A stretch of DNA of 26,491 bases from an uncultured archaeon (GTDB taxonomy: Archaea > Iainarchaeota > Iainarchaeia > Iainarchaeales > CSSED10-239): positions 1 through 26,491 of the forward strand of contig CAZQEL010000012.1 in the NCBI GenBank assembly GCA_964591795.1, in the 5' to 3' direction. The position numbers and the translations under genes were made by a program. Of the stretch, positions 7,889 through 26,491 are shown in pieces. Each line of letters opens with the position of its first letter. Positions within the stretch are counted from its first letter, which is position 1. Below the pieces are notes generated by a model. The model did not search any database and was not told the origin of the DNA. It saw only the letters and a program-made list of their open reading frames with translations.

Positions 7889-8051
7889 ATTGCGCATTTT
7901 ATTATTTTTTATACGCTGGGATTGCGCAATTTAGCTTTATTTTTTAATACTTTTTTAGGTTATCTAGAAAGTCCTTTAATTATAAGGGTTTAAGGATTAT
8001 TTTTATCTGCGCAATTTGTGTTTTTTTATTAATGATTATTGCGCATTTTAG
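7889..8051. promoter_or_regulatory. Four ATTGCGCA(A/T)TTT boxes in two pairs (putative operators) upstream of the RelA/SpoT-domain gene
   Basis: TGCGCA cores sit at 7891-7896, 7923-7928, 8008-8013 and 8040-8045, giving spacings of 32, 85 and 32 bp. I saw this GC-rich palindromic hexamer nowhere else in the window. A TATA-like tttataaata follows the last box, about 25 nt before the ATG at 8089. Confidence 0.55.
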
Positions 8052-8088
8052 TTTAATTTATAAATACGTCTATTCTATATATATTATT

Positions 8089-9167: not shown

Positions 9168-9680
9168 ATGATTCATAGAAATTATTTTATTCAAGGAAGA
9201 ATATTAATAGAAATATATGAAGATGAAGTATTAATATTAAATCCAAGTAAGCTTCTTTTTAATTTTAAGGATTTTGGAAAACTTAGTGTTTTAAGAAACC
9301 TTATTTTAGCAGGGTGTTTACAGAGAACAGATCTTATTGAAAAAATAGGTTCCGGTATTAAACGAATAAAAAAACTTTCTCCAAGTGTTAGGTTTAATAT
9401 AGATACTGATTGGTTTAGTGTTATATTTAAGAGAAAAACTTTTTCTATTAAATCTACTGTGAATGTCGGTGTAAAAGACACTGTAAGATTAAGTTTAAAT
9501 CAAATAAAAATATTAACTTTAATTAAAGATAATGGTGGTATTACTATTGAAAAATTAAGTGATGATATTGATATAAATGTAAGAAATATTAAAAAAAATA
9601 TATTGAAATTAAAATAATTTGGTTTATTAGAAAGAATTGGTTCAGATAAGGCTGGATATTGGAAAGTTATTGAAAAGTAA
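9168..9680 (+). pseudogene. 3' fragment of a COG2865-type (HATPase_c_4 + wHTH) gene, lacking the AlbA_2 N-terminus and carrying an in-frame TAA at 9615-9617
   Basis: It begins mid-domain (MIHRNYFIQGRILIEIYEDEVLILNPSKL...RNLILAGCLQRTDLIEKIGSGIKRI). After the TAA the same frame continues FGLLERIGSDKAGYWKVIEK*, the typical wHTH C-terminus of this family. It is a paralogue of 12591..13250. Confidence 0.65.
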
Positions 9681-9724: not shown

Positions 9725-10330
9725 TTATAATAATAAAAGTTTACCATAATCTGTTAAATAAAGGAGAACACTTTTTTCTTCAATTAATCCTTTTTCTTTA
9801 AAATCTCTTATATTATTATAAATTGCTGTTCTTCCAAGATTAAATTTATCTGAATTAGCTAAATCTGGTAACGAAATTGCTTTTTTAGAAATTTCTTCTA
9901 GCAAGTCATAAGCTCTTTTTGATATTTCAAAAGAAAGCTTAGGAATAACTACCATTTGGTTTATTTCTTGTGTAAAATAAAGAATTTCTTTAATTTTATT
10001 ACTTCTAGCATAACTTCCAAGCATTATACCAATAGACTTAGATTTTCTTCCAGCAGTAATGTCTACATATATTTCATTTTTTTCTTCATTATATATTTTA
10101 TCTATATTTTGAATAACTTCTTTTGCAATTTCATATATTTCATATAGGTTTGTTTTAATTTCTTTAAATTCTATATGTTTAAAAGTATTTTTTAGTTTTT
10201 CTTTAGTTTGCTTTTGAGTATCATCTGGTTGTTTATCCATAACTAGATAAATAATATCAGGACCTATTCTTGTTATTGCTCCAACCATTGGAGTAAATGA
10301 ATATGTATTTGTTAAAAGTATTTTTTTCAT
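9725..10330 (-). CDS. CARF-like Rossmann domain + C-terminal winged-helix regulator (Csa3-like)
   Basis: N-terminal MKKILLTNTYSFTPMVGAI beta-strand start. The IYVDITAGRKSKSIGIMLG block matches the D-x-T-x-G-x-K CARF signature. The C-terminal LGRTAIYNNIRDFKEKGLIEE is a wHTH. The track start at 10393 adds 21 residues; the internal ATG at 10330 fits the domain boundary better. Confidence 0.55.
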   Translation of the reverse strand: MKKILLTNTYSFTPMVGAITRIGPDIIYLVMDKQPDDTQKQTKEKLKNTFKHIEFKEIKTNLYEIYEIAKEVIQNIDKIYNEEKNEIYVDITAGRKSKSIGIMLGSYARSNKIKEILYFTQEINQMVVIPKLSFEISKRAYDLLEEISKKAISLPDLANSDKFNLGRTAIYNNIRDFKEKGLIEEKSVLLYLTDYGKLLLL

Positions 10331-10508
10331 ATGTTTTTCACTGTAATATATGTTGTCTAATATCTTTTTAAATGTATTTTTTATTAACTTCATTCACAAT
10401 TAAGTGTATTTATATACCTTTTTTTAGATTACTTTAAAAATACTTCTGTGCTATTTATTATATATTAATACAGAATAAAGTGTACTGTACCCAGGAGTGA
10501 GATCTAAA

Positions 10509-11756: not shown

Positions 11757-12425
11757 TTGAAAATGAAACTTCCAATAAACCCTAAAAAGTTACTAGAATC
11801 AGACTTAATTGAAAAAGAAAGATTAGAACTTAAAAAAGGTTTTAACCCTGAATCAATTATACATAAAATCACTGCTTTTGCAAATGATTTTAATAATTGG
11901 GGTGGAGGATATATTTTAATTGGAGTTAATGATAATAAAGAAGTTGAAGGTATTAATAAATATGAAATAGATTCAATTTTAAAAAAAATAATTGAACTTT
12001 GTAATAAAATAAACCCCACTTATTTTCCTGTTATTGAACCTTTTGAATATAATAACAAACATATACTAATTCTTTATTGCCCTGGTGGGTCAGAAAGGCC
12101 CTATAAAGCACCAAAATCTTTAGTAAAACCTTATGATTATAAATTATATATAAGGCATGGTCCTTGCACAGTTATAGCTAATTATAAAGAAGAAACAGAA
12201 TTAATTACTTTAAGTGTTATTCCTTTTGATGATAGAATTAATCATAAGGCAAGCATTGATGATTTAGATGATTCTTTAATAAATAAATACTTAAAAGAAA
12301 CAAACTTAAATTTAAAAGAATTATCAAAAATAGATATTTGTAAAAGTTTAAACATAGTTGATGGGTCAAAAGAATATTTAAAACCAAAAAATATAGGTAT
12401 ATTAATGTTTTGTAAAACTCCATAA
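11757..12425 (+). CDS. AlbA_2 (Schlafen-like) DNA-binding domain segment of a COG2865-type putative regulator
   Basis: ESDLIEKERLELKKGFNPESIIHKITAFANDFNNWGGGYILIGVNDNKEVEG matches the AlbA_2 signature. It ends at TAA 12423-12425, but the frame continues stop-free for 55 codons into 12591..13250. Confidence 0.75.
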   Translation: MKMKLPINPKKLLESDLIEKERLELKKGFNPESIIHKITAFANDFNNWGGGYILIGVNDNKEVEGINKYEIDSILKKIIELCNKINPTYFPVIEPFEYNNKHILILYCPGGSERPYKAPKSLVKPYDYKLYIRHGPCTVIANYKEETELITLSVIPFDDRINHKASIDDLDDSLINKYLKETNLNLKELSKIDICKSLNIVDGSKEYLKPKNIGILMFCKTP

Positions 12426-12590: not shown

Positions 12591-13250
12591 ATGGCTAAAA
12601 GTTTAAGATATTTTTCATATCCTTATCAAGCTATAAAAGAAGCTTTAGTTAATGCTGTTTATCATAAAAGTTATGAAGAGAACGTACCTGTTAAAATAAG
12701 AGTTGAACTTGATAGAATAGATATAGTTTCTTGTCCAGGGCCTCTTCCTCCATTAAATAAAGATAATATTAATAATGATGTTGTAATTTCTAGAAGATAT
12801 AGAAACAGAAGAATTGGTGAATTTTTAAAAGAATATAATTTAACTGAAGGAAAAAATACTGGATTTAGAAAAATCCGAAATGCTCTTAAAAATAATGGTT
12901 CACCTAAACCTATATTTATAACAGATGAAGATAGGGTTCAGTTTATTACAAGAATAAAGATTCATCCTAAATTTAAACAAAATTTTAACTTAGTTCAAGT
13001 TACCCCGCAAGTTACCCCGCAAGCTAGAATTAAAATAATTTTAGAATTTTGTAAAATTGAAAGAAATAGAGACGAAATTCAAACTAAGGTAGATATCAAG
13101 GATAGAGAATATTTCAGATCTAAAATATTAAACCCATTAATAAAAGAAGACTTAATTTCTCAAACAATTCCAGAAAAACCAAACAGTCCAAATCAAAAAT
13201 ACTTAATTACAGAAAAAGGTGTTAATTTTTTAAAAAAAGTAAGTAATTAA
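12591..13250 (+). CDS. HATPase_c_4-like + C-terminal wHTH segment of the same COG2865-type gene
   Basis: YPYQAIKEALVNAVYHKSYEENVPVKIRVELDRIDIVSCPGPLP and RRYRNRRIGEFLKEYNLTEGKNTGFRKI. It is in frame with 11757..12425. Confidence 0.75.
   Translation: MAKSLRYFSYPYQAIKEALVNAVYHKSYEENVPVKIRVELDRIDIVSCPGPLPPLNKDNINNDVVISRRYRNRRIGEFLKEYNLTEGKNTGFRKIRNALKNNGSPKPIFITDEDRVQFITRIKIHPKFKQNFNLVQVTPQVTPQARIKIILEFCKIERNRDEIQTKVDIKDREYFRSKILNPLIKEDLISQTIPEKPNSPNQKYLITEKGVNFLKKVSN
12999..13022 (+). repeat. Perfect 2 x 12-nt tandem duplication (gttaccccgcaa), encoding VTPQVTPQ
   Basis: Read directly: caa gttaccccgcaa gttaccccgcaa gct. It is conspicuously GC-rich for this window. Confidence 0.9.
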
Positions 13251-13493: not shown

Positions 13494-16400
13494 ATGAGTG
13501 AAAATATTGTTCAAAATCAAGCAATTAAAAAAATTACAGGACCTTGTATTATTTTAGCTGGTGCTGGAACTGGAAAAACAACCACAATACGTCAAAAAAT
13601 TAAATATTTAATAGATAATAAGCACTATAAACCTGAAGAAATACTTTGTTTAACCTTTTCAAACGAAGCTACAAATAATTTAAAAGAAAAAATATTTGAA
13701 GATATTAAAAGCGCTTCTAATTCTTTAACAATAAAGACATTTCATTCTTTTTGTTCTGAAGTAATCAAAGAAAACTATTCTTTTTTTAATATTAATTTTG
13801 ATTTTAAAATAATACAACCAGATGACTCTAAAGTACTAATACATAAATACTTTAATATTGAACCATATAATGCAAATAGATATGTTCATACTATTCAAAA
13901 CTGTAAAGATTTTGGAATAGCTATTGAAGATATTACTAATTATATAAAAAACATCTTAGAACCAAAACTTCTTGTTAAAACAACAATTGATAATATTAAA
14001 GCCTTTTATCTTGAAAGAGAAAAAGAACTTAGAACTATTTACAAAGAAATTAAGCATGAAGACAAAGATATTAGAAAAAACTCAAAAGAATACAAAAAAG
14101 AACTAAAAAAATATATTGAAGATTATAAAAATTATATTAAATTTAATAAATTTGTTAAAACATGGAACGAATATGAACAATTAAAAAAAGAAAAGAACTA
14201 TTTAGACTATGGTGACTTAAACAAACTAGTTTTAGAATACTTTAATGAAAATGGTGCTTCTAAATACACAGAACAATACAAATATGTGTTTGTTGATGAA
14301 TTTCAAGATACAAACAAACTTCAATTTGATTTAATTAAACATATTGCAGAACATAGAAACATAACTGTTGTTGGAGATATGAATCAATCCATTTATGGAT
14401 TTAGAGGAGCTTATAAAGAAAGCTTTGAAAAATTTGAAGAAAATTTTAAAGTTTCAAAAGAAACTGATGTTTTTTATTTAAATAAGTCATACAGGTCACC
14501 AAACACAGTTTTAAATATAGCCTATGAGTTAATAAAGAACAACTATGAAGAAAACAGCAAAGAATGTAAACTAATACAAAATGCAGATAACAGAGATGGA
14601 GAAAAAGTAAAAGTAGTCTCCTTTATTGATCAATATGAAGAAGCAAGATATATTTCTGATGAAGTTGAAAAAGAAATTGAAAATAAAATACCATTAGACC
14701 AAATTGCTATTCTAATAAGAACACATAAACAAGCAGAAATTATAAAACAAGCTCTTATTCTTAAAAAAATACCTTTTGTATACTCAGGAAAAACAAATAT
14801 TCTAGAGTATGCTGAAATTAAAACTGTTGTTTCATACTTATCAATACTTAATAACTTAATTAACAGAACAGCTACTGGTGAACAAGCATGGTGGAATCTT
14901 TTTCATTATAATAATACCTTAGACCCAGTTGACTCACTTAATATAAGTCACTATTTAAAAGCACATAGAAAAGAAAATCTATCCATTGACACACTACTTT
15001 TAGAATCTTTAACTGAATTAACACCAAAGGGTCAGAAAATAGTTAATAGAGTAGTTGAAAAATTAACTATTTTAACCAAACTATCAAATAAACCACTTCC
15101 AGAACTTGTTTTAGACATATATGATATCACTGGTTTAAATAGAAATTTTACATATAAAAGAACAATTGAAAACACAGAACATTTACTTAATTTAAAACAA
15201 TTTTATGAAATTACTAAAAATTATTATGAATTTCATGATAAATCTTTAATTTCATTTATTGATTATCTTGAAATGTTAGATAAACTTGATGTAAATATAC
15301 AAGCAAATCAAGTATCAAACCTTAATGCTATAAAATTAATGACAATTCATGCTTGTAAAGGACTTCAGTTTGAAAAAGTAATACTAACTAACCTTGCTGA
15401 AAAAAGATTTCCACTAGATAGAACACATAATGATCCATTAATTCCAAAAGAATTAATTGAAGATCGTAGACTAGAAATTGAAAGATTTAAACTTGAAAAT
15501 AAAGATCTTTCTTCAATAGATTTAGAAAAAGCAACAGCAGCAAGACTAAAAGAATACGAAAAAGAAATACTTCTACTTGACGAAAGACGTCTTTGTTATG
15601 TTGGATTTACAAGAGCAAGTAAATCATTAACATTAACTTTTGCAAAATCATATAGTTCTTCAGATAAAGCTTCTAAAAATTCAGTATTTTTAGATGAAAT
15701 TAAATATTTAGAAAGCAAAGATGTAGAATATACTGAAAATCTTGAAGATATATCAACAGTAATGGCTCCAAACTCAAAAGCTGAACAATTTAAATCTCTT
15801 TTAAAAAATCAACTTGTTTCTTCATTAGATTCAGATGATTTAGAATCATTAATACAAAGACTTAGTAAATACTTTGCAGTTAGAGAAAAACAATCCTCTC
15901 TTCAAGAAATAATAAACAACGTTGTTCTTGATAAAGAAGAACTACAAAAAGACATTTTAAAATATCAAGAAAATATAAACTCAATTAAATTTAATAAAGC
16001 TGAATTTAAATTCAGCCCATCATCAATTATGACCTATTTAGAATGTCCTAAAAAATTTGAACTTTCAGTAATATATAATATGCCACAAATTGGTGCTTTT
16101 GATGAAATTGAAGAAGAAGATCTAGACTCATCAGGTTCTGCTCTTAACAAAGGTAGTTACCTTCACAAAATTTTAGAAATTTTTATAATAAATAAAAAAA
16201 CCAACATAGAAGACATACAAACCATTGCAAAAGATCTTTTAAAAACAGAATTTTTAGCAAAAATCTATCAAAAAGACTATTTAGAAATAATAGAGCTTTG
16301 TAAAGTTTTTTTAGAAAGAAACCTTGAAAAAATATCCTCCTCTAAAAAACAAGAAACAGAGATTGATATCAACTTTGAGCTTGATGGTTATAGGATACAC

Positions 16401-16817
16401 GGTAAAGTTGATAGAGTAGATTATTTAAAAGGCGATTTAGAAGGTTTTGTTGATATAATTGATTACAAGACAAACAAGAGTGCAATTCCTCTTGAAAAAA
16501 GAAAAGTTCAGCTTGGTCTTTACGCTCTAGGGTTAATGAACCAAGGGTACAAGATAAACAAGATTGTTTTAGACATGTTAAAGCTTGAGTCACCTGTGGA
16601 AATGATAATCGACAACGACAATCAAGACGAAGTCACCGCATCTTTAGGATGTAACAAACTATCAAACTTCACTATCACAGAGTTTAAGCAACATATCTTG
16701 GACACATGTAAAAATATAGAAAAAGATTACGAGCACGATTTCAAGGTTATCGAATCAAACAGTCCATGTAAGTTTTGTGGTTACAAGTTTTATTGCCCGA
16801 AGTGGAGAACTGAATAA
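13494..16817 (+). CDS. UvrD/PcrA-type SF1 helicase fused to a C-terminal Cas4/AddB-like PD-(D/E)XK nuclease with a four-Cys cluster
   Basis: Helicase motifs: ILAGAGTGKTTT (Walker A), VFVDEFQDTN, VGDMNQSIYGFRGA, LNKSYRSPNTVL, MTIHACKGLQFEKVIL and RRLCYVGFTRASKSL. Nuclease motifs: YLECPKKF, GSYLHKILE, GKVDRVDY...VDIIDYKT, QLGLYA and CKFCGYKFYCP (C..CxxCx5C). Confidence 0.9.
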   Translation: MSENIVQNQAIKKITGPCIILAGAGTGKTTTIRQKIKYLIDNKHYKPEEILCLTFSNEATNNLKEKIFEDIKSASNSLTIKTFHSFCSEVIKENYSFFNINFDFKIIQPDDSKVLIHKYFNIEPYNANRYVHTIQNCKDFGIAIEDITNYIKNILEPKLLVKTTIDNIKAFYLEREKELRTIYKEIKHEDKDIRKNSKEYKKELKKYIEDYKNYIKFNKFVKTWNEYEQLKKEKNYLDYGDLNKLVLEYFNENGASKYTEQYKYVFVDEFQDTNKLQFDLIKHIAEHRNITVVGDMNQSIYGFRGAYKESFEKFEENFKVSKETDVFYLNKSYRSPNTVLNIAYELIKNNYEENSKECKLIQNADNRDGEKVKVVSFIDQYEEARYISDEVEKEIENKIPLDQIAILIRTHKQAEIIKQALILKKIPFVYSGKTNILEYAEIKTVVSYLSILNNLINRTATGEQAWWNLFHYNNTLDPVDSLNISHYLKAHRKENLSIDTLLLESLTELTPKGQKIVNRVVEKLTILTKLSNKPLPELVLDIYDITGLNRNFTYKRTIENTEHLLNLKQFYEITKNYYEFHDKSLISFIDYLEMLDKLDVNIQANQVSNLNAIKLMTIHACKGLQFEKVILTNLAEKRFPLDRTHNDPLIPKELIEDRRLEIERFKLENKDLSSIDLEKATAARLKEYEKEILLLDERRLCYVGFTRASKSLTLTFAKSYSSSDKASKNSVFLDEIKYLESKDVEYTENLEDISTVMAPNSKAEQFKSLLKNQLVSSLDSDDLESLIQRLSKYFAVREKQSSLQEIINNVVLDKEELQKDILKYQENINSIKFNKAEFKFSPSSIMTYLECPKKFELSVIYNMPQIGAFDEIEEEDLDSSGSALNKGSYLHKILEIFIINKKTNIEDIQTIAKDLLKTEFLAKIYQKDYLEIIELCKVFLERNLEKISSSKKQETEIDINFELDGYRIHGKVDRVDYLKGDLEGFVDIIDYKTNKSAIPLEKRKVQLGLYALGLMNQGYKINKIVLDMLKLESPVEMIIDNDNQDEVTASLGCNKLSNFTITEFKQHILDTCKNIEKDYEHDFKVIESNSPCKFCGYKFYCPKWRTE

Positions 16818-16905
16818 GAAATAAAAAAAGAAGTTAAATTAAATTAAAATAGACTTAGAATCTAAATTGATGAAATTGTAAGAATAAATCAAAGGATAAG
16901 CAATT

Positions 16906-17775
16906 ATGGTAGATAAAAAAAATAAAATTAGATTGTTTGAACAGACTAAAGTTAGAACTGTATGGGATGAAGAAAATCAAAAATGGTGGTTTTCTGTACT
17001 AGATATTGTTGGAATATTAACTGACCAGCCTAATTTTCAAAAGGCGCGTAATTATTGGAAATGGTTAAAAAATAAATTAAAATCAGAAGGAAATGAAACG
17101 GTTAGTAATACTAACCAGTTGAAAATGAAAGCAGAAGATGGCAAAATGCGTCTAACTGATGTGGCTTGTACTGAACAACTTTTAAGACTTATTCAATCAA
17201 TTCCTTCAAAAAAAGCAGAACCATTCAAGATATGGCTTGCAAAAGTAGGTAATGAAAGAATTGACGAAACAATCGATCCAGAAATTTCAATTGATAGAGC
17301 AATTCAAAATTATTGTAGATTAGGTTATAGTGAAAATTGGATAAATCAAAGAATAAAATCTATTGAAATAAGAAAAGCTTTAACAGATGAATGGGATAAA
17401 AGTGAGGTTAAAAGAGGAAAAGAATATGCAGAATTAACTGATTTAATGAGTAAGACTTGGAGTGGAATGACTACACTTGAATATAAAAAATATAAAAATT
17501 TGAAAAAAAAGAATCTGCGAGATAATATGACAAACACAGAGCTTATTTTAAATATGCTCTCAGAAGTTGCAACAACAGATATTTCTATGGTTCGCAGTCC
17601 AATAGGTCTTCAAGAAAGTAAGAAAGTTGCTAAAGAAGGTGCAAAAACAGCAAAAGTTGCAAGAGAACAACTTGAAAAAAGTACAGGAAAGAGAGTAATA
17701 AGTAAGTCAAACGTTAAAAAATCTGATAAAAACATTTTAGATGATAGATCTAAAATTAATAAATTTGATAAATAA
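16906..17775 (+). CDS. Bro-N domain protein (phage antirepressor / DinD-like family)
   Basis: FEQTKVRTVWDEENQKWWFSVLDIVGILTD...QLKMKAEDGKMRLTDVACTEQLLRLIQSIPSKKAEPFKIWLAKVGNERIDE is a widely conserved Bro-N family sequence. G+C is visibly higher than in neighbouring genes. Confidence 0.8.
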   Translation: MVDKKNKIRLFEQTKVRTVWDEENQKWWFSVLDIVGILTDQPNFQKARNYWKWLKNKLKSEGNETVSNTNQLKMKAEDGKMRLTDVACTEQLLRLIQSIPSKKAEPFKIWLAKVGNERIDETIDPEISIDRAIQNYCRLGYSENWINQRIKSIEIRKALTDEWDKSEVKRGKEYAELTDLMSKTWSGMTTLEYKKYKNLKKKNLRDNMTNTELILNMLSEVATTDISMVRSPIGLQESKKVAKEGAKTAKVAREQLEKSTGKRVISKSNVKKSDKNILDDRSKINKFDK

Positions 17776-19752: not shown

Positions 19753-20133
19753 ATGAATAAAGTATATTGTAGTGAATGTGGAAAAAAAATATCTAAAAAT
19801 GCAGTTATTTGTTTAAACTGTGGAGGAAAACAAAATCTTGATTCAGTAAAAACGAAAACTAATATTAAAATTAATCAAAGTTTAATAAAAATGGTTAAAT
19901 TAGTAGAGTTTGGTATTGTTCTTGGTATTCTTTTTAATTTTTTTGCATATATTTATTCTTGGAAAGAAGATTATTATAAATTTTGGATTATGCTTGTAAT
20001 TTATTTTCTTTTATCTATAACCTTCTCAAAATTAGGTAATTATAGTATCTATTTTGCACTTTTTTTAATGCTAATTATAATTACTGATTTTTTATCAAAA
20101 AAGGATTCTGAGTTTTATATTTGGAAAAAATAA
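19753..20133 (+). CDS. Zinc-ribbon membrane protein
   Basis: VYCSECGKKISKNAVICLNCGG (CxxC-x10-CxxC) followed by hydrophobic helices. It is a tandem paralogue of the next gene. Confidence 0.6.
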   Translation: MNKVYCSECGKKISKNAVICLNCGGKQNLDSVKTKTNIKINQSLIKMVKLVEFGIVLGILFNFFAYIYSWKEDYYKFWIMLVIYFLLSITFSKLGNYSIYFALFLMLIIITDFLSKKDSEFYIWKK

Positions 20134-20153
20134 TAATTTTAATGTGAGTGTAT

Positions 20154-20504
20154 ATGGGATTAATTTATTGTAGAGAATGTGGAAAAAAAATATCAGATAC
20201 TGCTGATGTTTGTGTTAAATGTGGAGCATCTGTAGACACAGGTAGTAAAATTACAGATAAAAGATTAATTATTGAAAAAAAAAGAAAATCAACCGCTATA
20301 ATATTAGCTATATTTTTTGGTCCTATTGCTTGGACTTATACTTGGAAGTTTGATAAAGCTAAATTTTGGGCTGGTATAATTGTTGATTTGTTATTCTTTT
20401 GGACTATTTTTATTCCTATAGCTATTACTATTTGGGCAATTATAGATATGTCTATAAAAGATGATGATAAATTCGAAAATTATCATAAATATAAAGCAAG
20501 TTAA
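20154..20504 (+). CDS. Zinc-ribbon membrane protein (paralogue)
   Basis: IYCRECGKKISDTADVCVKCGA followed by 2 TM helices (AIILAIFFGPIAW..., IFIPIAITIWAIID). The track start is the GTG at 20148; an ATG at 20154 is an alternative. Confidence 0.6.
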   Translation: MGLIYCRECGKKISDTADVCVKCGASVDTGSKITDKRLIIEKKRKSTAIILAIFFGPIAWTYTWKFDKAKFWAGIIVDLLFFWTIFIPIAITIWAIIDMSIKDDDKFENYHKYKAS

Positions 20505-20625: not shown

Positions 20626-21585
20626 ATGAAATTATTTATAAATAGAAATGAAATTAATTCTATATTTGAATTATTAGGTACTAAGGAAAATAATATTACA
20701 TATGCAACAGGCTGGTGTTTTTCTAATATTAAGCCATTTTTAGATATATTTCTTTCAGAAATTGAAAGTAAGAAAATAATTGATGAAATGGATATTAATT
20801 TACAAAAATTTGATGAAGATAAAGGTTATAAAGATATTGAATTAATTTCTAATAATTATCATTATATAATTGAAGCAAAAAAAGGATGGAATTTACCTTC
20901 TAAATTCCAGTTATTAAGATACACTTCACGTTTTAAAAAAGAAAAAAATAATAAGATAATTGTGTTAAGCGAATGTAAAAAAGAATATGCTAAAAAGATT
21001 TTAGCTAAATATAATTCTAAAATACCTATTGAATTTATATCATTTAATAAAATTTATGAACTGATAAAAAAAATAAGATGTGATTGTAATTATAAGCAAA
21101 GATATATTTTGGATGAATTATATAAATATTATAAAAAGGCGGTAAAAATGATTGATATAAATTCAAATAAAGTGTTTTGTGTTGTTATTTCAGACAAAAA
21201 ATTAGTAAAAGATTTTACTTTTTTAGATGTTGTAAAAAAAGGTTATTATTTTTATCCATTAGTAACTAATTGGCCAAAAGATAAACCTCCTACATATATT
21301 GCTTTTAGATCTAAAGGTAAATTATTATCTATTCATTATGTTAAAGATTATGATGTTGTTGAAAAACCAGATAAATATATACCAGAATTAAAAGGCTGGA
21401 AAGGTTGGAGTAATAATTTACATTATATTTTAAAATTAGGTAAAGCATTTAAACCAAACCACGAAGTAAAAAATGGAAAAATATATGCTAGTCAACATTT
21501 ATGGTGTATGTTAGATACGTTATTTACTTCCAAAACAATAAAAGAAGCAAGGGATATAACTCAAAAAAGATGCATAACTAAGTGA
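20626..21585 (+). CDS. Hypothetical protein with an N-terminal PD-(D/E)XK-like motif set
   Basis: KENNITYATGW (Glu), YKDIELISNNYHYIIEAKKGW (D...ExK spacing) fits a restriction-endonuclease-like core. The C-terminal half (YIAFRSKGKLLSIHYVKDYDVV) is unassigned. Confidence 0.45.
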   Translation: MKLFINRNEINSIFELLGTKENNITYATGWCFSNIKPFLDIFLSEIESKKIIDEMDINLQKFDEDKGYKDIELISNNYHYIIEAKKGWNLPSKFQLLRYTSRFKKEKNNKIIVLSECKKEYAKKILAKYNSKIPIEFISFNKIYELIKKIRCDCNYKQRYILDELYKYYKKAVKMIDINSNKVFCVVISDKKLVKDFTFLDVVKKGYYFYPLVTNWPKDKPPTYIAFRSKGKLLSIHYVKDYDVVEKPDKYIPELKGWKGWSNNLHYILKLGKAFKPNHEVKNGKIYASQHLWCMLDTLFTSKTIKEARDITQKRCITK

Positions 21586-21620
21586 AATTATTTAAATATT
21601 TAATTATAGGAAAATAGGAT

Positions 21621-22304
21621 ATGCTAAAAACAAATAATTTAAATAATATTTTAAATTCAAAAAAATTAGTTGAAAGATCATTAACTATTGTGAAAAGAGA
21701 ATATAGACCTTATGATCCTGGTAATTATCTTTATAATTTACTATTAAATAATAATAAAAATATATTTTCTGATAAATATCTTGAGTTAATTTATACCACA
21801 CTTATTTCTTGGAATATGAATTCAAGAGGTGCAAAATTAAAAAATATAAATTCTTTTAAAAAATCTATCCTTAAAAACAGAAAAATAATATCTAATTTAA
21901 AAATATATACATTTAATGATTTAAATAAACACTCTAAAGAGATATTTATACAATTAGAAATATTATATAATAATTTAGAATTATGCATACAAAAATCAAA
22001 GATAGTCACTTTTTCTAAAACTATGCATTTTTTATTACCAAAATTATGTATCCCTATTGATAGAAAATATACTTTAAGATTTTTTTACAATAGTACAAAT
22101 ATAAATTATAACACACAATTTAAGAGATATAAACAAATAAACAAATACTTTTTAGAAATATATAATCAACACAATTTAAAACAATATTTAGATATAGGTA
22201 AAATTATATGGAATACAACTATTCCAAAGATATTAGATAATATAGTAATAGGATATATGATATTAATAGATAAAGAGGAAAAATATGAAAACAAAAGATT
22301 TTAA
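21621..22304 (+). CDS. Hypothetical protein, no family recognised
   Basis: A 227-aa ORF lying 35 nt after the previous gene and overlapping the next by 20 nt. Conserved-looking blocks are LIYTTLISWNMNSRGAKL and SKTMHFLLPKLCIPIDRKYTLRFF. Confidence 0.5.
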   Translation: MLKTNNLNNILNSKKLVERSLTIVKREYRPYDPGNYLYNLLLNNNKNIFSDKYLELIYTTLISWNMNSRGAKLKNINSFKKSILKNRKIISNLKIYTFNDLNKHSKEIFIQLEILYNNLELCIQKSKIVTFSKTMHFLLPKLCIPIDRKYTLRFFYNSTNINYNTQFKRYKQINKYFLEIYNQHNLKQYLDIGKIIWNTTIPKILDNIVIGYMILIDKEEKYENKRF

Positions 22305-23445
22305 TAATTTAAAAATACTTTTAGAAAAAATTAAAAATATTACTTGGATAGAAAGGGTAATTTATTGGAGACCTATTAGATCTTTAAGTTATGATGCTTA
22401 TGATGAATTTAAATCATTAGATAATATTATTGAAGATAATAAAGAAAAATTACAAAAATATGAACAAGATAACAAATTATTAAATAAAGATATAGAAAAT
22501 TATAAAGAAAAAATAAATGATTCTAAATCAGATATAAAAATAAAAGATAACACTGTATACAATCTTAATAAAGAAATAAGTGAAAAAGACAAAATAATAG
22601 CAAAATCAGAAAAAGAATATGAAACACACAGACAAACACATCAAAAATCAATAGATGGTTTTGATAGTAGAAGAAAACAACTAGAAGATGAAAGATTAGA
22701 AGAACAAAAACAAATATTTGAAAAAATGAAAGAAACTTGGCAAAACCATGAAAAAGAGGTAGAAAGAGTAATAAAAGATATATGTAAAAGAAACCAAATA
22801 TCTTATCTTTCAAAAGAAAAAATAGAAATTAAAGGAAAACCAGATAATACTATTAAAATTATAGATGAATATGTAATATTTGATGCAAAATCACCAGCAA
22901 ATGATAATTTAGATAATTTTCCAAAATATTTAGTTGATCAAACTAAAAGAATAGAAAAATACATAAAAGAAAAAAATGTTAAAAAAATAATATATTTAGT
23001 AATACCATTAAACACAGTATCTATATTAAAACAATTTGTATATGAAGTTAATAACTATAAGGTATTTATAGTAACAATAGATTCTTTAGAATCTATAATA
23101 CTATCTTTAAAAGAAGTAGAAAAGTATCATTTTGTAGATAAACTAAGTCCAGAAGATAGAAATCAAATATGTGATATTATAGGAAGATATGCAAATACTA
23201 CAAAAAGAAAGATAGAGATAGATAATATAGTAAATCATGAGTTTTTGAAGATTGCAGACAGTTGCAATGATTTAAATCCAAATATTAAGAAATCAGCAGT
23301 AGAGTATGAGAAAGCATATGCTTTAAATCCACCAATGGCAAAGAAAGGTAAGTTATTAGACCTTGATAAGTTAGATGAGGATATTAAGGTTATTGATCAT
23401 AAGAGGGTACTTAAACAGAAAAAGTTGTTAGGGAAAAAGAAATAA
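22285..23445 (+). CDS. RmuC-like protein: N-terminal coiled coil + C-terminal PD-(D/E)XK-type nuclease domain
   Basis: A long K/E-rich coiled-coil region, then KGKPDNTIKIIDEYVIFDAKSPANDNLDNFPKYLVDQTKRIEKYI and IYLVIPLN. These parallel the RmuC core (PD..i.lp....iviDaK.pl..Y ... mFiP.E). Confidence 0.55.
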   Translation: MKTKDFNNLKILLEKIKNITWIERVIYWRPIRSLSYDAYDEFKSLDNIIEDNKEKLQKYEQDNKLLNKDIENYKEKINDSKSDIKIKDNTVYNLNKEISEKDKIIAKSEKEYETHRQTHQKSIDGFDSRRKQLEDERLEEQKQIFEKMKETWQNHEKEVERVIKDICKRNQISYLSKEKIEIKGKPDNTIKIIDEYVIFDAKSPANDNLDNFPKYLVDQTKRIEKYIKEKNVKKIIYLVIPLNTVSILKQFVYEVNNYKVFIVTIDSLESIILSLKEVEKYHFVDKLSPEDRNQICDIIGRYANTTKRKIEIDNIVNHEFLKIADSCNDLNPNIKKSAVEYEKAYALNPPMAKKGKLLDLDKLDEDIKVIDHKRVLKQKKLLGKKK

Positions 23446-23456
23446 GGAGTGATAAA

Positions 23457-23663
23457 ATGGATTGGATAGAAGTATCATCAAAACGAGTTAGTGAAGTAGC
23501 ATTTGATGTTGTTGAAAAAAAAGTTTTTGTTAAATTTAAAAGCGATGGTGTAATTTATATTTATAATGGAGTATCTGAAGATATATTTAAACAATTTATT
23601 ACAGCCGTATCTATTGGTAGTGCAATACCTTTGTTAGGTAATAATTATCATAAATTAACTTGA
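23457..23663 (+). CDS. KTSC-domain protein
   Basis: SSKRVSEVAFDVVEKKVFVKFKSDGVIYIYNGVSEDIFKQFITAVSIGSAI follows the KTSC consensus (S..i..v.Yd.....L.V.F..G..Y.Y..V....y..l..A.S.G). An SD-like aaggagtga sits 11 nt after the previous stop. Confidence 0.7.
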   Translation: MDWIEVSSKRVSEVAFDVVEKKVFVKFKSDGVIYIYNGVSEDIFKQFITAVSIGSAIPLLGNNYHKLT

Positions 23664-23776
23664 ATATAAAATGAATTAATATATTATGAATATTAATGTA
23701 TGTGGTATCTAAATAAATTTATATTATACATATAATTAAAAATTATAGTTGTAAAAAAATAAAATAAAAATAATTG

Positions 23777-25969
23777 ATGAAAATGGAACTTAATATTAAT
23801 TTAGAAAATTGTTATGGTATAAAAAAATTAGATATGAAATTTAATTTTAATGTCAATAATACTTTTGCAATATATGCTCCGAATGGTAGTATGAAAACAT
23901 CATTTGCAAAAACATTTTTAGATTTAAGTGATAATTATAAAAAATCAGAAGATTTAATAAATCCTGAAAGAAATACTTTAAGAATAATTAAAGATGAAAA
24001 TGATAAAGATTTAGATTGTAATTCTATTTTTGTTATAAAATCATATGATGAAGATTATGCTTCAAAAAAAGTATCAACATTATTAGCAAATCCAAAATTA
24101 AGAAAAAAATATGAATTAATTGTGTTTGATATTACAAAATTAAAACAAAGGTTTTTAAAAGAGTTAAAAGATATATCAAAATCAAGAAAAAATATAGAAG
24201 ATGAATTGTATAAAGTTTTTAATGAAAATGAATTTGTTGGTGTTTTCAAAAAGATTAAAAGTTTAATATGTGATGTAGATTATAATTTTTCAAATTTAAA
24301 TTATGATTTATTTTTTAATGATAAAGCATTTGATTTTTTAAAAACAAGTGGGTTTAAATTAAAGCTTAAAGAATATATTGAGATTTATGATTCTTTATTA
24401 AAAAATTCTAGATTCTTAAAAAATGGATTTAATCATTATAAAGCAAATAAAATAAGTAAAGAATTGAGTAAGGATAGTTTTTTTAATGCAAAACATTCTT
24501 TAAATTTATTTGATGCAAAAACTAATAAAAATATTGAAGTAAAAAGTATAATAAACTTTGATGATATCATTGAGAAAGAAAAAAATTTAATTTTAAGTAG
24601 TAATGAATTAAAATTAAAATTTAAAAGTATTGATTCTAAAATAAAAAATCAAGAATTAGAAGAATTACGTGAATTTTTAAAAGAAAATAAAGAAATTATA
24701 ATTGAATTGAATGATTTAGTTAATTTTGCTCAAAAAATATGGGTGTCTTATATTATTAATAATAATAAAGAGTTATTTGAAGAATTATTTATTAAAGCTG
24801 AGAAAGATATTAAAAACATTTTAATTGAGGTTAAAAAAGAACAAAAAGATTGGAAAGAAGTAATTTCTGAATTTAATAAAAGATTTTTTGTGCCTTTTAA
24901 AATTAAAATAAAGAATATTGAAGATATTGTACTAAAAGGTGAAACTATACCATTTTTTGAATATGAATTTAAAGATAAAGATAATAATACTAATACATCT
25001 AAATCTGAACTTATGACTGTATTAAGTAGTGGTGAAAAGAAAGCTTTATATTTATTAAATATTATTTTTGAAGTAAAAGCAAGAGATAAATTAAGTCAAA
25101 AAACAATATTTATTATAGATGATATTGCTGATTCTTTTGATTATAAAAATAAATATGCAATTATTCAATATTTAAAAGAAATTGCTGAAAATAGTCACTT
25201 TTATCAAATAATTTTAACACATAATTTTGATTTTTTTAGAACAATTCAAAGTAGATTTGTAAGTTATAAAAATTGTTTAATTGCTTCAAAAGATAATTCT
25301 AAAATTAAATTAATATCTAGTAAATATATAAAAAACCCTTTTATAAATGATTGGAAGCTTCATAAATTTAAAGAAGATTCTAAGTTTATTGCATCGATTC
25401 CATTTGTAAGAAATTTAGTTGAATATTGTGGTAATATAAATTATTATGATGTATTAACATCTTGTTTACATATTAAAGAAAATACAAACAAATTAAATGT
25501 AGGTAAAATTAGAACTATTTTTGAAAATGTTTTAAATTTAACTTTTTCTTTAGATAATGAAGATAAATTAATAAAAAATTTAGTTTTTGAAGTTTGCAAT
25601 GATATTTTAAGTGAAAATATCACAGTTAGTGATTTAGATAAAAAGATCACATTATCTATTGGAATTCGTTTACAAGCAGAATTATATTTAATTAATAAAA
25701 TAAAACTATTTGAAAATATAGCAAAACTATATGAAATTTGTAAAGAAAAAAATAAATCTCAAACATATTTTTTATATAGTAAATTTTGTGAATATTTCCC
25801 TAATAATTATAACACAAAATCAATTTTAGATAAAGTAAATTTAATAATACCTGAAAATATACATGTGAATTCATTTATGTATGAACCAATACTTGATATG
25901 GGTTGTAATTCTTTAAAGCAATTATATAAAGATGTGTTTGAATTAAATAAAGAACAAATTAAATTATAA
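23777..25969 (+). CDS. Rad50/SMC-style ABC ATPase (AAA_13 / RloA-PrrC-like architecture) with an atypical Walker A
   Basis: N-terminal P-loop FAIYAPNGSMKTSFAKTF and a coiled-coil insert of about 300 aa. This is followed by the ABC signature LSSGEKKALYLLNIIFE, Walker B TIFIIDDIADSFD and the H-loop region QIILTHNFDFF. A C-terminal domain of about 230 aa is unassigned. The track start is the TTG at 23774; ATGs occur at 23777 and 23783. Confidence 0.75.
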   Translation: MKMELNINLENCYGIKKLDMKFNFNVNNTFAIYAPNGSMKTSFAKTFLDLSDNYKKSEDLINPERNTLRIIKDENDKDLDCNSIFVIKSYDEDYASKKVSTLLANPKLRKKYELIVFDITKLKQRFLKELKDISKSRKNIEDELYKVFNENEFVGVFKKIKSLICDVDYNFSNLNYDLFFNDKAFDFLKTSGFKLKLKEYIEIYDSLLKNSRFLKNGFNHYKANKISKELSKDSFFNAKHSLNLFDAKTNKNIEVKSIINFDDIIEKEKNLILSSNELKLKFKSIDSKIKNQELEELREFLKENKEIIIELNDLVNFAQKIWVSYIINNNKELFEELFIKAEKDIKNILIEVKKEQKDWKEVISEFNKRFFVPFKIKIKNIEDIVLKGETIPFFEYEFKDKDNNTNTSKSELMTVLSSGEKKALYLLNIIFEVKARDKLSQKTIFIIDDIADSFDYKNKYAIIQYLKEIAENSHFYQIILTHNFDFFRTIQSRFVSYKNCLIASKDNSKIKLISSKYIKNPFINDWKLHKFKEDSKFIASIPFVRNLVEYCGNINYYDVLTSCLHIKENTNKLNVGKIRTIFENVLNLTFSLDNEDKLIKNLVFEVCNDILSENITVSDLDKKITLSIGIRLQAELYLINKIKLFENIAKLYEICKEKNKSQTYFLYSKFCEYFPNNYNTKSILDKVNLIIPENIHVNSFMYEPILDMGCNSLKQLYKDVFELNKEQIKL

Positions 25970-26076
25970 ATGTTTATTTATTAATTTATAGAAAATTATG
26001 ATGTTTTATAAGTTTAAACGAAAATGATAATAAAAGGTTTTTTAATTTAAATAATATATAATATATGTGATTAAAT

Positions 26077-26491
26077 ATGGACTCAACAGATACAAGATTC
26101 ATTATTAATGAAAAAGATAGAACTCTTTATGATAGATTTAATGTTTTAATTAAAAATGTATCTATTTTTGACTGTTTAGTAGGTTATTTTTACTCAAGTG
26201 GATTTTATTTGATGTCAGATGCTTTAAAAGATACAAATAAAATAAGAATATTAATTGGTCTTGGAACTGATACTAATACTTTAAATCAAATTAATAAATC
26301 AAAATTAGAGCATTTTATCCCATCTTCTAAAGATATAAATACAAATATTGAAAAAAATATTGAAAATGAATTTGAAAATTCAAAAGATATTAAAGAATTA
26401 GAATTAGGGGTTAATTTATTTCTAGATTGGTTAAAATCTAAAAAATTAGAAATTAAAGCTTATCCTGAGCAAAATTTACATTCTAAGTTAT
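26077..26491 (+). CDS. N-terminal HKD (phospholipase-D-like) nuclease domain of a larger protein that runs off the right edge
   Basis: Not in the track because there is no stop. ATG at 26077; translation MDSTDTRFIINEKDRTLYDRFNVLIKNVSIFDCLVGYFYSSGFYLMSDALKDTNKIRILIGLGTD...LEIKAYPEQNLHSKL. This is the pattern of PLD-type N-terminal domains that precede SNF2/DEAD helicase modules in restriction-like proteins, and the HxK motif falls at the window end. Confidence 0.65.
   Translation, partial: MDSTDTRFIINEKDRTLYDRFNVLIKNVSIFDCLVGYFYSSGFYLMSDALKDTNKIRILIGLGTDTNTLNQINKSKLEHFIPSSKDINTNIEKNIENEFENSKDIKELELGVNLFLDWLKSKKLEIKAYPEQNLHSKL

What the first reader, a model, noticed from the sequence alone, without database searches (positions are those of the whole stretch)
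23774..26491. SMC/ABC ATPase with a Gly-to-Met Walker A, followed by an HKD-nuclease-headed gene
The 731-aa protein has the full split ABC head: P-loop, long coiled-coil insert, LSSGEK signature, Walker B DD and an H-loop-like THN. However, the P-loop reads APNGSMKTS (codon atg at the position of the invariant Gly of GK[ST]). This could be a family-specific variant or a sign of altered or lost nucleotide binding. The gene lies 110 nt downstream of the four-gene operon and 107 nt upstream of a gene opening with a PLD/HKD nuclease domain. That domain pattern usually heads SNF2/DEAD helicase restriction-like proteins. ABC-ATPase plus nuclease/helicase pairings are a recurrent defence logic (PrrC/RloC, PARIS, Gabija, Lamassu type). 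I cannot assign this combination, with its unassigned 230-aa C-terminal domain, to any of them.
Basis: partly seen in the sequence, partly recalled or inferred. Interest (0 to 1): 0.7.

Follow-up and report, generated by a model that had tools for sequence, protein, structure and literature searches.

The report
Restriction-linked ATPase with methionine P-loop
The gene is an intact member of a very large, catalogued but untested family of candidate phage-defence ATPases (PADLOC PDC-S46); the odd methionine in the ATP-binding loop is the family's hallmark, not damage, and the nuclease-helicase gene next door belongs to a separate restriction-like system.

Summary
ORF 23774-25969 encodes a 728-731 aa split ABC/SMC-type ATPase reading APNGSMKTS, LSSGE, IIDD and LTHN. 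A truncated HKD (PLD) gene starts 107 nt downstream.

The interpretation needs revising. The protein matches PADLOC model PDC-S46 end to end (E 5.5e-231). This is one of 145 untested "phage defence candidates" found by guilt-by-embedding. Met replaces the Walker A glycine in 120/120 close homologues and 79/79 genome copies. Among diverse representatives it is Met, or once Leu and once Phe, and never Gly. Lys/Thr, the signature, the Walker B DD and the H-loop His are invariant. It is therefore a family trait under selection, not decay.

The ATPase motifs resemble those of PrrC (AxxGxGKT, IDD, LSKGE, TTH), and some homologues pass Pfam AAA_13. The 216-aa C-terminal domain is a confidently predicted all-alpha fold with no significant match in Pfam, PDB or BFVD.

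No neighbour is conserved across 80 genome loci. However, 30 of the 78 loci with a full-length copy carry restriction-modification genes within 10 kb, often directly adjacent. These are of types I, ISP, IIG, III and PLD-SNF2 plus Eco57I-type methylase. Full-length relatives of the downstream gene are ~960-1150 aa SNF2 helicases, three of which carry the N-terminal HKD domain; four of the six seen in context pair with a large Eco57I/N6-type methylase.

Most likely this is a stand-alone, restriction-linked, PrrC/RloC-like switch-plus-effector. The mechanism is inferred, not shown.

The parts
23783..25969 (+). PDC-S46-family gene (728 aa from ATG 23783; the ORF is open from TTG 23774). It is a PrrC/RloC-like split ABC ATPase fused to a family-specific C-terminal domain.
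   Evidence: ORF list. PADLOC PDLC05023 matches at E 5.5e-231 over residues 5-724 and 3-718 of 719 model positions. More than 6764 homologous 90%-identity clusters were found.
23783..24082 (+). ATPase head, N-lobe (aa 1-100): beta-hairpin NCYGI, strand, P-loop and helix.
   Evidence: AF2 secondary structure gives E2-10, E13-21, E27-31 and H35-49. Invariant residues are C10, Y11, G12, I13, Y31, N34, G35, M37, K38, T39 and S40. There are Foldseek hits to SMC/Rad50 heads.
23873..23902 (+). Walker A variant YAPNGSMKTS. The Met codon at 23891-23893 replaces the Gly of GK[ST].
   Evidence: Sequence. Met is present in 120/120 homologues and 79/79 genome copies. Among 89 full-length 50%-cluster representatives, 79 matched the motif search with Met, one had Leu and one had Phe. 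The other 8 also show MKTS by eye, four of them with the start codon mis-called at that Met. None has Gly.
24083..24892 (+). Helical insert between the two head lobes (aa 101-370). It consists of many short helices plus one beta-hairpin, with no zinc hook.
   Evidence: AF2 DSSP. No conserved Cys pair appears in the alignment. Homologues match Pfam AAA_13 model positions ~282-609 over this region and the C-lobe.
24893..25318 (+). ATPase head, C-lobe (aa 371-512): signature LSSGE (25022-25036), Walker B/D-loop IIDDIADSFDYKNKY (DD at 25118-25123) and H-loop LTHN (His at 25220-25222).
   Evidence: S415, G417, E418, D446, D447, D453 and H480 are invariant. DDIADSFDYKNKYAII is one of the two most conserved 20-residue windows, at 0.96.
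25319..25966 (+). C-terminal all-alpha domain (aa 513-728) of unknown fold class. Invariant polar residues are R543, N544, E547, T559, S560, H563, K565, K621, R629, E633, Q660, N692, H694, N696, Y700, E701 and D705, with T661 and E691 near-invariant. It is the candidate effector.
   Evidence: AF2 on the domain alone gives pLDDT 87, pTM 0.87 and 12 helices. There is no Pfam hit, no PDB sequence hit and no significant Foldseek hit in PDB or BFVD. The PENIHxNSFMYEPILDM stretch has conservation 0.96.
25970..26076 (.). 107-nt AT-rich spacer between the two genes.
   Evidence: Sequence. No terminator-like site was found and promoter-like matches are at shuffle level, so the scan is uninformative.
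26077..26491 (+). First 138 codons of an HKD (PLD-family) nuclease-SNF2 helicase gene, cut by the contig end. The HxK motif lies at 26479-26487. It is a neighbouring restriction-like module, not an obligate partner.
   Evidence: Translation. Homologue fragments carry PLDc_2/RE_NgoFVII and are named 'helicase, partial'. Full-length relatives of 1090-1145 aa have PLDc_2, SNF2/ResIII and Helicase_C domains and sit beside large Eco57I/N6-type methylases.

Best explanation
The gene is an intact member of the PDC-S46 family. This is a stand-alone, horizontally mobile protein in which a PrrC/RloC-type (AAA_13-like) split ABC ATPase head is fused to a family-specific all-alpha C-terminal domain. The Met in the P-loop is an ancestral, selected hallmark of the whole family.

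Shown: family membership, the intactness of this copy, the invariance of Met alongside Lys/Thr, the signature, Walker B DD and the H-loop His, the absence of any conserved partner gene, and recurrent placement next to or inside restriction-modification operons of many types.

Inferred: it works like PrrC or RloC. The head dimerises around a nucleotide bound in a remodelled pocket and acts as a switch. In normal cells the switch keeps the C-terminal domain silent. When phage infection disturbs restriction or DNA integrity, the switch releases the domain, which bears about 19 invariant or near-invariant polar residues including an R-x3-E...H set. The outcome would be second-line or abortive defence. 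RNA cleavage is the leading but unproven guess for the effector chemistry.

The HKD-helicase gene downstream belongs to a separate methylase plus nuclease-helicase restriction-like module. Its methylase presumably lies beyond the contig end.
For: Family membership: PADLOC PDC-S46 matches at E 5.5e-231 over the full length. [quoted passage not shown]

P-loop and catalytic motifs: Met is present in 120/120 homologues and 79/79 genome copies. In diverse representatives it is Met or rarely Leu/Phe, never Gly. There are 104 invariant columns, including K38, T39, S415, G417, E418, D446, D447 and H480.

Resemblance to PrrC: EcoPrrC uses AxxGxGKT, YVFIDD, SSLD, LSKGE and TTH, and lacks a canonical Q-loop (PMC3025547). 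Homologues P0043, P0071, P0072 and P0087 pass the Pfam AAA_13 gathering score. The fold matches SMC, Rad50, AriA, PtuA and OLD heads.

Architecture: the C-domain profile finds 1278 representatives. In every full-length protein among the best 150 listed, the domain lies at the C-terminus of a ~720-aa protein.

Context: no neighbour cluster occurs in more than 7 of 80 loci. RM methylase or R genes lie within 10 kb in 30 of the 78 loci with a full-length copy, and within 3 kb in 22 of them. About a dozen are directly adjacent and co-oriented. The types are III, I, ISP, IIG, a PstI-like fusion and PLD-SNF2 plus Eco57I.

C-domain: the highest-probability Foldseek hits are HEPN proteins (2q00, prob 0.85; HepT 6m6w), but they are not significant. 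RloC's nuclease motif is R-x3-E-x36-52-H (PMC2610378).
Against: No experiment exists for any family member, and 'PDC-S46' appears in no paper text searched. The C-domain has no significant structural or sequence match. It lacks the HEPN Rx4-6H motif, and its E-to-H spacing (15-18 by the motif search) is much shorter than in PrrC (31) or RloC (36-52). The RNase idea is therefore weak. A non-Gly residue before the Walker Lys normally impairs nucleotide binding (own knowledge: PROSITE PS00017 [AG]-x4-G-K-[ST]; Ras G15A), so the head may not bind NTP in the canonical way. About 60% of loci show no RM gene within the DNA available. No matched control set was computed for the RM enrichment. Plasmid copies sit among conjugation or leading-region genes, which also fits other roles.
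Confidence: 0.55

Rival explanations
1. The ATPase and the downstream HKD-SNF2 helicase form a dedicated two-gene defence system. The ATPase would be the sensor and the nuclease-helicase the effector, in the style of PARIS, Gabija or Lamassu.
For: The genes are on the same strand with a 107-nt gap. A related PLD-SNF2 helicase is in the same operon-like cluster in L049 (helicase, then Eco57I methylase, then S46 overlapping by 4 nt). Related SNF2 helicases lie within 6 kb in L053, L067 and L074.
Against: Only 4 of the 78 genome loci with a full-length copy have such a helicase within 10 kb. Of those four helicases only L049 shows a PLD domain, and gene order and orientation vary. The helicase family has its own constant partner, a large Eco57I/N6-type methylase, in loci that show no S46 gene in the stretch examined (Natrinema, Prevotella, Haloferax). 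S46 is equally often adjacent to type I, III, ISP and IIG enzymes.
Confidence: 0.06
2. The Met marks a decayed or enzymatically dead ATPase, either a pseudogene or a nucleotide-independent scaffold.
For: The Gly of GK[ST] is otherwise near-universal (own knowledge). No conserved Q-loop Gln is present. The window protein itself scores below threshold on all Pfam ATPase models.
Against: The ORF is full length and keeps every one of the 104 invariant columns. Met is fixed across bacterial phyla, CPR bacteria and Woesearchaeota. Lys-Thr, the signature, DD, the D-loop and the H-loop His are all invariant, which makes sense only if a phosphate-containing ligand is still bound. DD is also the functional Walker B of PrrC.
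Confidence: 0.07
3. The protein is an accessory or regulatory subunit of restriction enzymes, for example one that tunes or reports their activity, and has no toxic effector of its own.
For: It is frequently adjacent to and co-oriented with R or M genes at gaps of -4 to 133 nt. PrrC physically associates with EcoprrI (PMC2610378 and PMC3710099).
Against: The neighbouring enzymes belong to at least six mechanistically different RM classes, which makes one conserved physical interface unlikely. Most loci and the plasmid copies have no RM gene nearby. The C-domain carries many invariant polar residues typical of a catalytic or ligand-binding site.
Confidence: 0.15
4. The protein serves a non-defence role on mobile elements, such as plasmid establishment, anti-defence, or SMC-like DNA handling.
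For: The gene is found on 29 plasmids, 17 of them conjugative or mobilizable. In Providencia pPROV188-1 it lies between an hsdM fragment and an antirestriction gene close to traM/traY. In an A. baumannii plasmid it lies next to T4SS genes. One phage-like contig carries it.
Against: Chromosomal copies cluster with RM, nSTAND3, DUF2130 and Mrr genes and with integrases, as defence-island cargo does. Defence systems are themselves common plasmid cargo. No conserved linkage to replication, partition or transfer genes was seen.
Confidence: 0.12

Closest known systems
PADLOC PDC-S46 (phage defence candidate, single gene; Payne et al., bioRxiv 10.1101/2024.01.29.577857)
   Same: The protein matches the family HMM over its full length at E 5.5e-231. 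It is a single-gene module repeatedly embedded in or adjacent to RM systems.
   Different: Nothing differs in sequence terms; this is a member. The family itself is only a bioinformatic candidate. It has no tested activity, no described mechanism, and no mention of the Met P-loop in the text searched.
PrrC / RloC anticodon nucleases (Pfam AAA_13 ABC ATPase plus C-terminal HEPN-type RNase)
   Same: The order is an N-terminal ABC NTPase followed by a C-terminal helical domain. The motifs have a PrrC flavour: Ala-first Walker A, IDD Walker B, LSxGE, TH H-loop and no canonical Q-loop. Some homologues pass the AAA_13 threshold. The head is split by an insert, as in RloC. The genes are restriction-linked. 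An invariant R-x3-E followed by His is present in the C-domain.
   Different: The Walker A Gly is replaced by Met. There is no zinc hook. The AAA_13 match stops at about residue 520 and does not cover the C-domain. There is no PADLOC PrrC hit. The E-to-H spacing is 15-18 against 31-52. There is no Rx4-6H motif. The Foldseek similarity to HEPN is not significant. The RM types linked are far more varied than PrrC's type Ic.
Two-component ABC-ATPase defence systems (PARIS AriA/AriB, Septu PtuA/PtuB, Gabija GajA/GajB, Lamassu LmuB, retron-associated PtuA-like ATPases)
   Same: The ABC/SMC-like head fold is shared, with structural hits to AriA, PtuA, OLD and retron Ec83/IA ATPases. The defence-island context is also shared.
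   Different: These systems need a conserved adjacent nuclease partner or a fused TOPRIM domain. S46 has no conserved partner and a different, unassigned C-terminal domain. All of them have canonical GK[ST] (own knowledge).
HKD(PLD)-SNF2 helicase plus Eco57I/MmeI-type methylase modules (downstream gene only)
   Same: The N-terminal 138 aa align with the N-terminus of such proteins, including the HxK motif. Relatives are paired with 1088-1172 aa N6-adenine methylases.
   Different: Only the first 138 codons are on the contig. The helicase domains and the methylase are not visible here. There are weak hits only to PADLOC PbeA (5e-4) and NCBIfam phospholipD_antiphage (0.009).

Membership tests
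PADLOC PDC-S46 | Full-length match to the family HMM (PDLC05023) | tested here: met
   E 5.5e-231, 767 bits, residues 5-724 against model positions 3-718 of 719.
PADLOC PDC-S46 | Single-gene system with no obligate partner gene | tested here: met
   In 80 genome loci the most frequent neighbour cluster occurs in 7 loci. Among 102 immediate neighbours no Pfam family occurs more than 4 times.
PADLOC PDC-S46 | Anti-phage activity | not testable with these tools
   PDCs are explicitly untested candidates. No paper text mentions PDC-S46.
ABC / SMC-Rad50-type ATPase | Canonical Walker A [AG]-x4-G-K-[ST] | tested here: not met
   The motif reads A-P-N-G-S-M-K-T, with Met at the Gly position in this copy and in all relatives.
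ABC / SMC-Rad50-type ATPase | Signature (C-loop), Walker B acidic pair, D-loop and H-loop His | tested here: met
   LSSGE, IIDD, DSFD and LTHN are present, and S415, G417, E418, D446, D447, D453 and H480 are invariant.
ABC / SMC-Rad50-type ATPase | Q-loop glutamine | tested here: not met
   No invariant or near-invariant Gln lies between the P-loop helix and the insert. PrrC also lacks a canonical Q-loop.
ABC / SMC-Rad50-type ATPase | Head fold split by an insert | tested here: met
   The AF2 model has pLDDT 83. Foldseek against PDB gives cohesin/SMC, Rad50, AriA, PtuA, OLD and RecF heads at E 1e-5 to 3e-3.
PrrC / RloC (AAA_13 plus HEPN anticodon nuclease) | Pfam AAA_13 match | tested here: inconclusive
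   The window protein has no AAA_13 hit at E<=1. Homologues P0043, P0071, P0072 and P0087 score 36-51 bits against a cut-off of 36, covering residues ~193-523 only.
PrrC / RloC (AAA_13 plus HEPN anticodon nuclease) | C-terminal nuclease triad R-x3-E-x31-52-H, or the HEPN Rx4-6H motif | tested here: not met
   R543-x3-E547 is invariant, but the next invariant His follows after 15-18 residues in the loci where the motif search matched. No Rx4-6H motif is present. There are no Pfam HEPN hits. Foldseek HEPN hits have E of 1 or more.
PrrC / RloC (AAA_13 plus HEPN anticodon nuclease) | CxxC zinc hook in the insert (RloC) | tested here: not met
   The only invariant Cys is C10, and the insert has no CxxC.
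PrrC / RloC (AAA_13 plus HEPN anticodon nuclease) | Linkage to restriction-modification loci | tested here: met
   30 of the 78 loci with a full-length copy have RM methylase or R genes within 10 kb, and about 12 are directly adjacent and co-oriented. No matched control was computed.
Two-gene ABC-ATPase plus nuclease systems (PARIS, Gabija, Septu, Lamassu) | Conserved adjacent nuclease or effector gene | tested here: not met
   No conserved neighbour was found. There are no PADLOC hits to AriA, GajA, PtuA or LmuB at E<=1.
HKD nuclease-SNF2 helicase restriction-like proteins (downstream gene) | N-terminal PLD domain with an HxK motif | tested here: met
   NLHSKL lies at 26473-26490. Homologues carry PF13091/PF09565. 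The fragment aligns with the Prevotella protein.
HKD nuclease-SNF2 helicase restriction-like proteins (downstream gene) | SNF2/ResIII helicase core and a partner methylase | not testable with these tools
   The contig ends at 26491, and the exact protein P0001 is not on record on any other contig. Both features are present in relatives.

The most novel reading that the evidence does not exclude
The PDC-S46 family has rebuilt the P-loop so that a bulky hydrophobic residue (Met, rarely Leu or Phe) occupies the position that is Gly in the standard Walker A consensus, while the Lys-Thr, signature, Walker B and H-loop residues are kept. On this reading the pocket binds or senses something other than a standard NTP in the standard way. 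Candidates are a particular (d)NTP, as with PrrC's dTTP, a signalling nucleotide, or ATP in a non-hydrolytic latch. That pocket would control a C-terminal effector domain of a fold class not yet represented in PDB, BFVD or Pfam. Both would be new: a natural, functional non-Gly Walker A and a new defence effector domain.
Probability: 0.2. Interest if true: 0.7.

Novelty: new member of a known kind. Interest (0 to 1): 0.38.

Why it matters
The family is large. It has more than 6700 clusters at 90% identity and about 1300 at 50%, across many bacterial phyla, CPR bacteria, Woesearchaeota and conjugative plasmids. It is consistently tied to restriction systems, yet nothing is known about how it works.

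Its invariant Met at the Walker A glycine is a clean natural experiment on a rule considered almost absolute for P-loop NTPases. Wild type against an M-to-G mutant is a simple and decisive test.

If the PrrC/RloC analogy holds, this would be a widespread third lineage of restriction-linked ABC-ATPase suicide or back-up modules with a new effector domain.

For this window specifically, the practical result is that the finding is explained. It is an intact PDC-S46 gene next to an unrelated HKD-helicase/methylase module inside a defence island.

Tried and rejected
1. Pfam, NCBIfam and PDB sequence searches of the whole protein gave nothing significant: SMC_N 0.14, transporter ABC models 1e-3, Smc4 0.14.
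2. C-domain searches were all non-significant. These were Pfam on 17 members, a PDB profile search, Foldseek against PDB (best E 0.69) and Foldseek against BFVD. The small HEPN hits (2q00, 2jpu, 6m6w) are noted as a lead only.
3. Stand-alone C-domain proteins of ~216 aa among the representatives looked like a split-gene variant. The one traced (P0269/L083) is a contig-edge artefact, because the reading frame stays open to the contig start and continues the ATPase sequence. The idea was rejected.
4. The exact-protein look-up to extend the contig found no record.
5. A homologue search with the 138-aa fragment returned only short partial proteins. Full-length relatives had to be found through plasmid tblastn.
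6. The four upstream ORFs (20626-23663) have no homologue in any S46 locus, so they are not part of the module.
7. The promoter and terminator scan was uninformative in 20% GC DNA. No tRNA or Rfam features were found.
8. Krishnan et al. 2020 (ABC ATPase classification) is not held in the library. Whether the Met P-loop clade is described there could not be checked.
9. A direct profile comparison with the PrrC/RloC C-domains was not possible.


Full report
**What is there**

The window is 18-29% GC and nearly all its genes are on the + strand. ORF 23774-25969 encodes 731 aa counted from a TTG. The database copy of the same protein (P0001, 100% identity, on a 26,491-nt NCBI contig) starts at ATG 23783 and has 728 aa.

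- YAPNGSMKTS, with the Met codon at 23891-23893
- LSSGE at 25022-25036
- IIDDIADSFD, with the Asp pair at 25118-25123
- LTHN, with the His at 25220-25222

The gene lies 110 nt after the previous ORF and 107 nt before an ATG at 26077. That ATG opens a reading frame which runs off the contig after 138 codons and ends in NLHSKL, an HxK motif.

One descriptive point needs correcting. The ~270-residue insert between the two ATPase lobes is predicted as many short helices (none longer than 29 residues) plus a beta-hairpin. It is not a long antiparallel coiled coil, and it has no CxxC hook.

**What family it is**

Pfam, NCBIfam and PDB sequence searches gave nothing significant for this copy. The PADLOC library matches it end to end to model PDC-S46 at E 5.5e-231, covering residues 5-724 and model positions 3-718 of 719.

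PDC systems are 145 untested "phage defence candidates". [quoted passage not shown] The text of the papers held contains no mention of PDC-S46.

The family is large. The C-terminal domain profile finds 1278 representatives at 50% identity. Members occur in many bacterial phyla, in CPR bacteria and in a Woesearchaeota MAG. They are also found on 29 plasmids, 17 of them conjugative or mobilizable, and on one phage-like contig.

**The Met is a family trait**

In an alignment of 32 homologues sharing 44-56% identity with this copy, 104 columns are invariant. They include M37, K38, T39, S40, S415, G417, E418, D446, D447, D453 and H480.

The counts for the P-loop position are:
- Met in 120/120 listed homologues.
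- Met in 79/79 copies, counting the 78 genome loci with a full-length copy plus this window.
- Among 89 full-length 50%-identity representatives, the motif search gave Met in 79, Leu in one and Phe in one. The other 8 also show MKTS by eye, four of them with the start codon mis-called at that Met. None has Gly.

This copy keeps all the invariant residues, so the decay reading is excluded.

The "DD" Walker B is not a defect either. E. coli PrrC, a functional NTPase, uses AxxGxGKT, YVFIDD, SSLD, LSKGE and KFIITTH, and it lacks a canonical Q-loop (PMC3025547). The S46 motifs have the same flavour: APNGxMKT, FIIDD, DSFD, LSxGE, ILTHN, and no conserved Gln.

Four homologues pass the Pfam gathering score for AAA_13, the PrrC/RloC family. 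Their match covers residues ~193-523 and model positions 282-609 of 713. An AlphaFold2 model (pLDDT 83) matches SMC, cohesin, Rad50, AriA, PtuA, OLD, RecF and retron-associated ATPase heads.

What remains unusual is the hydrophobic residue at the Gly of GK[ST]. That Gly is part of the PROSITE P-loop pattern, and substituting it in Ras (G15A) abolishes tight nucleotide binding. This is my own knowledge and was not tested here.

**The C-terminal domain**

Residues 513-728 fold confidently on their own (pLDDT 87, pTM 0.87) into 12 helices. The domain contains 32 invariant positions and one of the two most conserved stretches of the protein, PENIHxNSFMYEPILDM.

It has no significant match by any method used: Pfam on 17 members, a PDB profile search, Foldseek against PDB (best E 0.69) and Foldseek against BFVD. 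The highest-probability small hits are HEPN proteins (2q00 at prob 0.85, 2jpu, and HepT 6m6w), with TM about 0.5 over ~130 columns. That is a lead and not evidence.

The invariant R543-N-x-x-E547 followed by H563 recalls the PrrC/RloC triad, which is R-x3-E-x31-52-H (PMC2610378). However, the E-to-H spacing here is 15-18 and the HEPN Rx4-6H motif (PMC3710099) is absent. In every full-length protein among the best 150 representatives listed, the domain lies at the C-terminus of a ~720-aa protein. Apparent ~216-aa stand-alone versions are contig-edge gene-calling artefacts.

**Neighbourhood**

I fetched 80 genome loci with up to 10 kb on each side. I called ORFs and clustered all neighbours. The S46 cluster is present in all loci. 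The next most frequent cluster occurs in only 7.

None of the window's other genes recurs in those loci, apart from remote helicase, peptidase and HATPase_c_4 similarities. This includes the four upstream ORFs and, at BLAST level, the downstream fragment. Among 102 immediate neighbours, no Pfam family occurs more than four times.

What does recur is the class of neighbour:
- type III Mod/Res
- type I HsdM/S/R
- type ISP single-chain enzymes
- type IIG Eco57I-like enzymes
- a PstI-like M-R fusion
- Mrr, DpnII and D12/C5 methylases
- DUF2130, nSTAND3 and integrases

With iterated profiles built from these proteins, 30 of the 78 loci with a full-length copy carry an RM methylase or R gene within the available DNA. 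In 22 loci such a gene lies within 3 kb. About a dozen are directly adjacent and co-oriented, with gaps from -4 to 133 nt. I did not compute a matched control. Both the proportion and the decay with distance are well above what I would expect for random genes, but that expectation is my own estimate.

**The downstream gene**

Its 138 residues align with residues 3-135 of a 1090-aa Prevotella protein that has PLDc_2/NgoFVII, SNF2/ResIII and Helicase_C domains. Relatives with context include:
- Prevotella: the helicase is followed by an AlbA_2/HATPase_c_4/Fic_C gene and then a 1172-aa Eco57I/MmeI-type methylase.
- Natrinema pNVE500: a 1136-aa methylase followed by a 1145-aa PLD-helicase.
- Haloferax pHV4: a methylase followed by a PLD protein.
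- L049: PLD-helicase, then an Eco57I-type methylase, then S46.

The gene is therefore the R-like component of a methylase plus HKD-helicase module. Its methylase probably lies beyond the contig end. Related SNF2 helicases lie within 10 kb of S46 in only 4 of the 78 loci, and only the L049 copy shows a PLD domain. The pair is one instance of a general restriction linkage, not a dedicated two-gene system.

**How it most likely works**

Shown: an intact, strongly constrained, stand-alone ABC-type head with a PrrC-like motif set and a non-Gly Walker A. It is fused to a constrained unknown domain and habitually linked to diverse RM systems in defence islands and on mobile elements.

Inferred, by analogy with PrrC/RloC and other ABC-ATPase defence proteins: the head acts as a nucleotide-dependent dimeric switch. 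It keeps the C-terminal domain silent and releases it when infection perturbs restriction or DNA integrity, giving second-line or abortive defence.

Because the linked RM enzymes belong to at least six classes, a shared direct protein-protein interface seems unlikely. Co-transfer, or a common trigger such as anti-restriction proteins or DNA ends, is more plausible. The effector chemistry is unknown. RNase activity is the leading guess but has weak support.

**Verdict**

The finding is real. It is largely explained by membership of a catalogued candidate family and by the known habit of such genes to sit beside RM systems. The residual interest lies in two things: the family-wide Met (or Leu/Phe) at the Walker A glycine, and the unassigned, highly conserved C-terminal domain. 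Both are experimentally tractable.

Noticed in passing
window 11757-12425 and 12591-13250: There are two adjacent ORFs: Schlafen AlbA_2 (222 aa) and HATPase_c_4 plus Fic-like_C (219 aa). Together they have the domain order of a single protein that sits inside RM-like operons elsewhere. In Prevotella L082 (12268-13662) that protein lies between the PLD-helicase and the Eco57I methylase, and in L028 (5105-6946) it lies between Mod and Res. The window may hold a split or decayed copy. A third HATPase_c_4 plus wHTH ORF is at 9168-9617.
   Followed up: partly
window 8032-9153 and 9725-10393 (-): A RelA_SpoT-domain protein (373 aa, E 1e-19) lies next to a minus-strand HFX_2341_N / CARF-like Rossmann protein (222 aa). 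This may be a nucleotide-signalling defence pair.
   Followed up: no
window 13494-17775: A 1107-aa fusion of a UvrD helicase and a C-terminal PD-(D/E)XK nuclease is followed by a 289-aa Bro-N domain protein. Weak relatives of the helicase occur in three S46 loci (L040, L044, L053).
   Followed up: no
window 20626-23663: This is the 'four-gene operon' upstream (319, 227, 386 and 68 aa). Only the last ORF has a Pfam domain (KTSC, E 1.5e-8), and the 386-aa protein has a coiled-coil N-half. None has a homologue in any of the 80 S46 loci, so they are unrelated to the ATPase.
   Followed up: partly
window 19753-20504: Two tandem small proteins (126 and 118 aa) each have an N-terminal zinc ribbon and C-terminal hydrophobic helices.
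   Followed up: no
L083 1-686; proteins P0269, P0284, P0288, P0304 and others: Many ~215-220-aa database 'proteins' that look like stand-alone C-domains share a start at the conserved 'CL[MI]' position. In the one traced (P0269/L083) the reading frame is open to the contig edge, so it is a truncated full-length gene. Other database entries (P0307, P0334, P0335, P0364) start at the P-loop Met itself (MKTS...), which indicates mis-called start codons.
   Followed up: yes
L085 (Providencia pPROV188-1) and L084 (A. baumannii plasmid): On plasmids the S46 homologue lies near transfer genes. In Providencia it sits between an hsdM fragment and an annotated antirestriction gene, close to traM/traY/traA. 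Rhizobium copies are annotated 'phage infection protein'.
   Followed up: partly
L028 12160-13596, L035 2812-4134, L038 3459-4664: A DUF2130 protein (401-478 aa) lies immediately beside S46 in three loci. In two it is downstream on the same strand with overlapping or abutting reading frames (gaps -4 and -1), and in one it is on the opposite strand. It is the only non-RM immediate neighbour seen three times other than nSTAND3.
   Followed up: no
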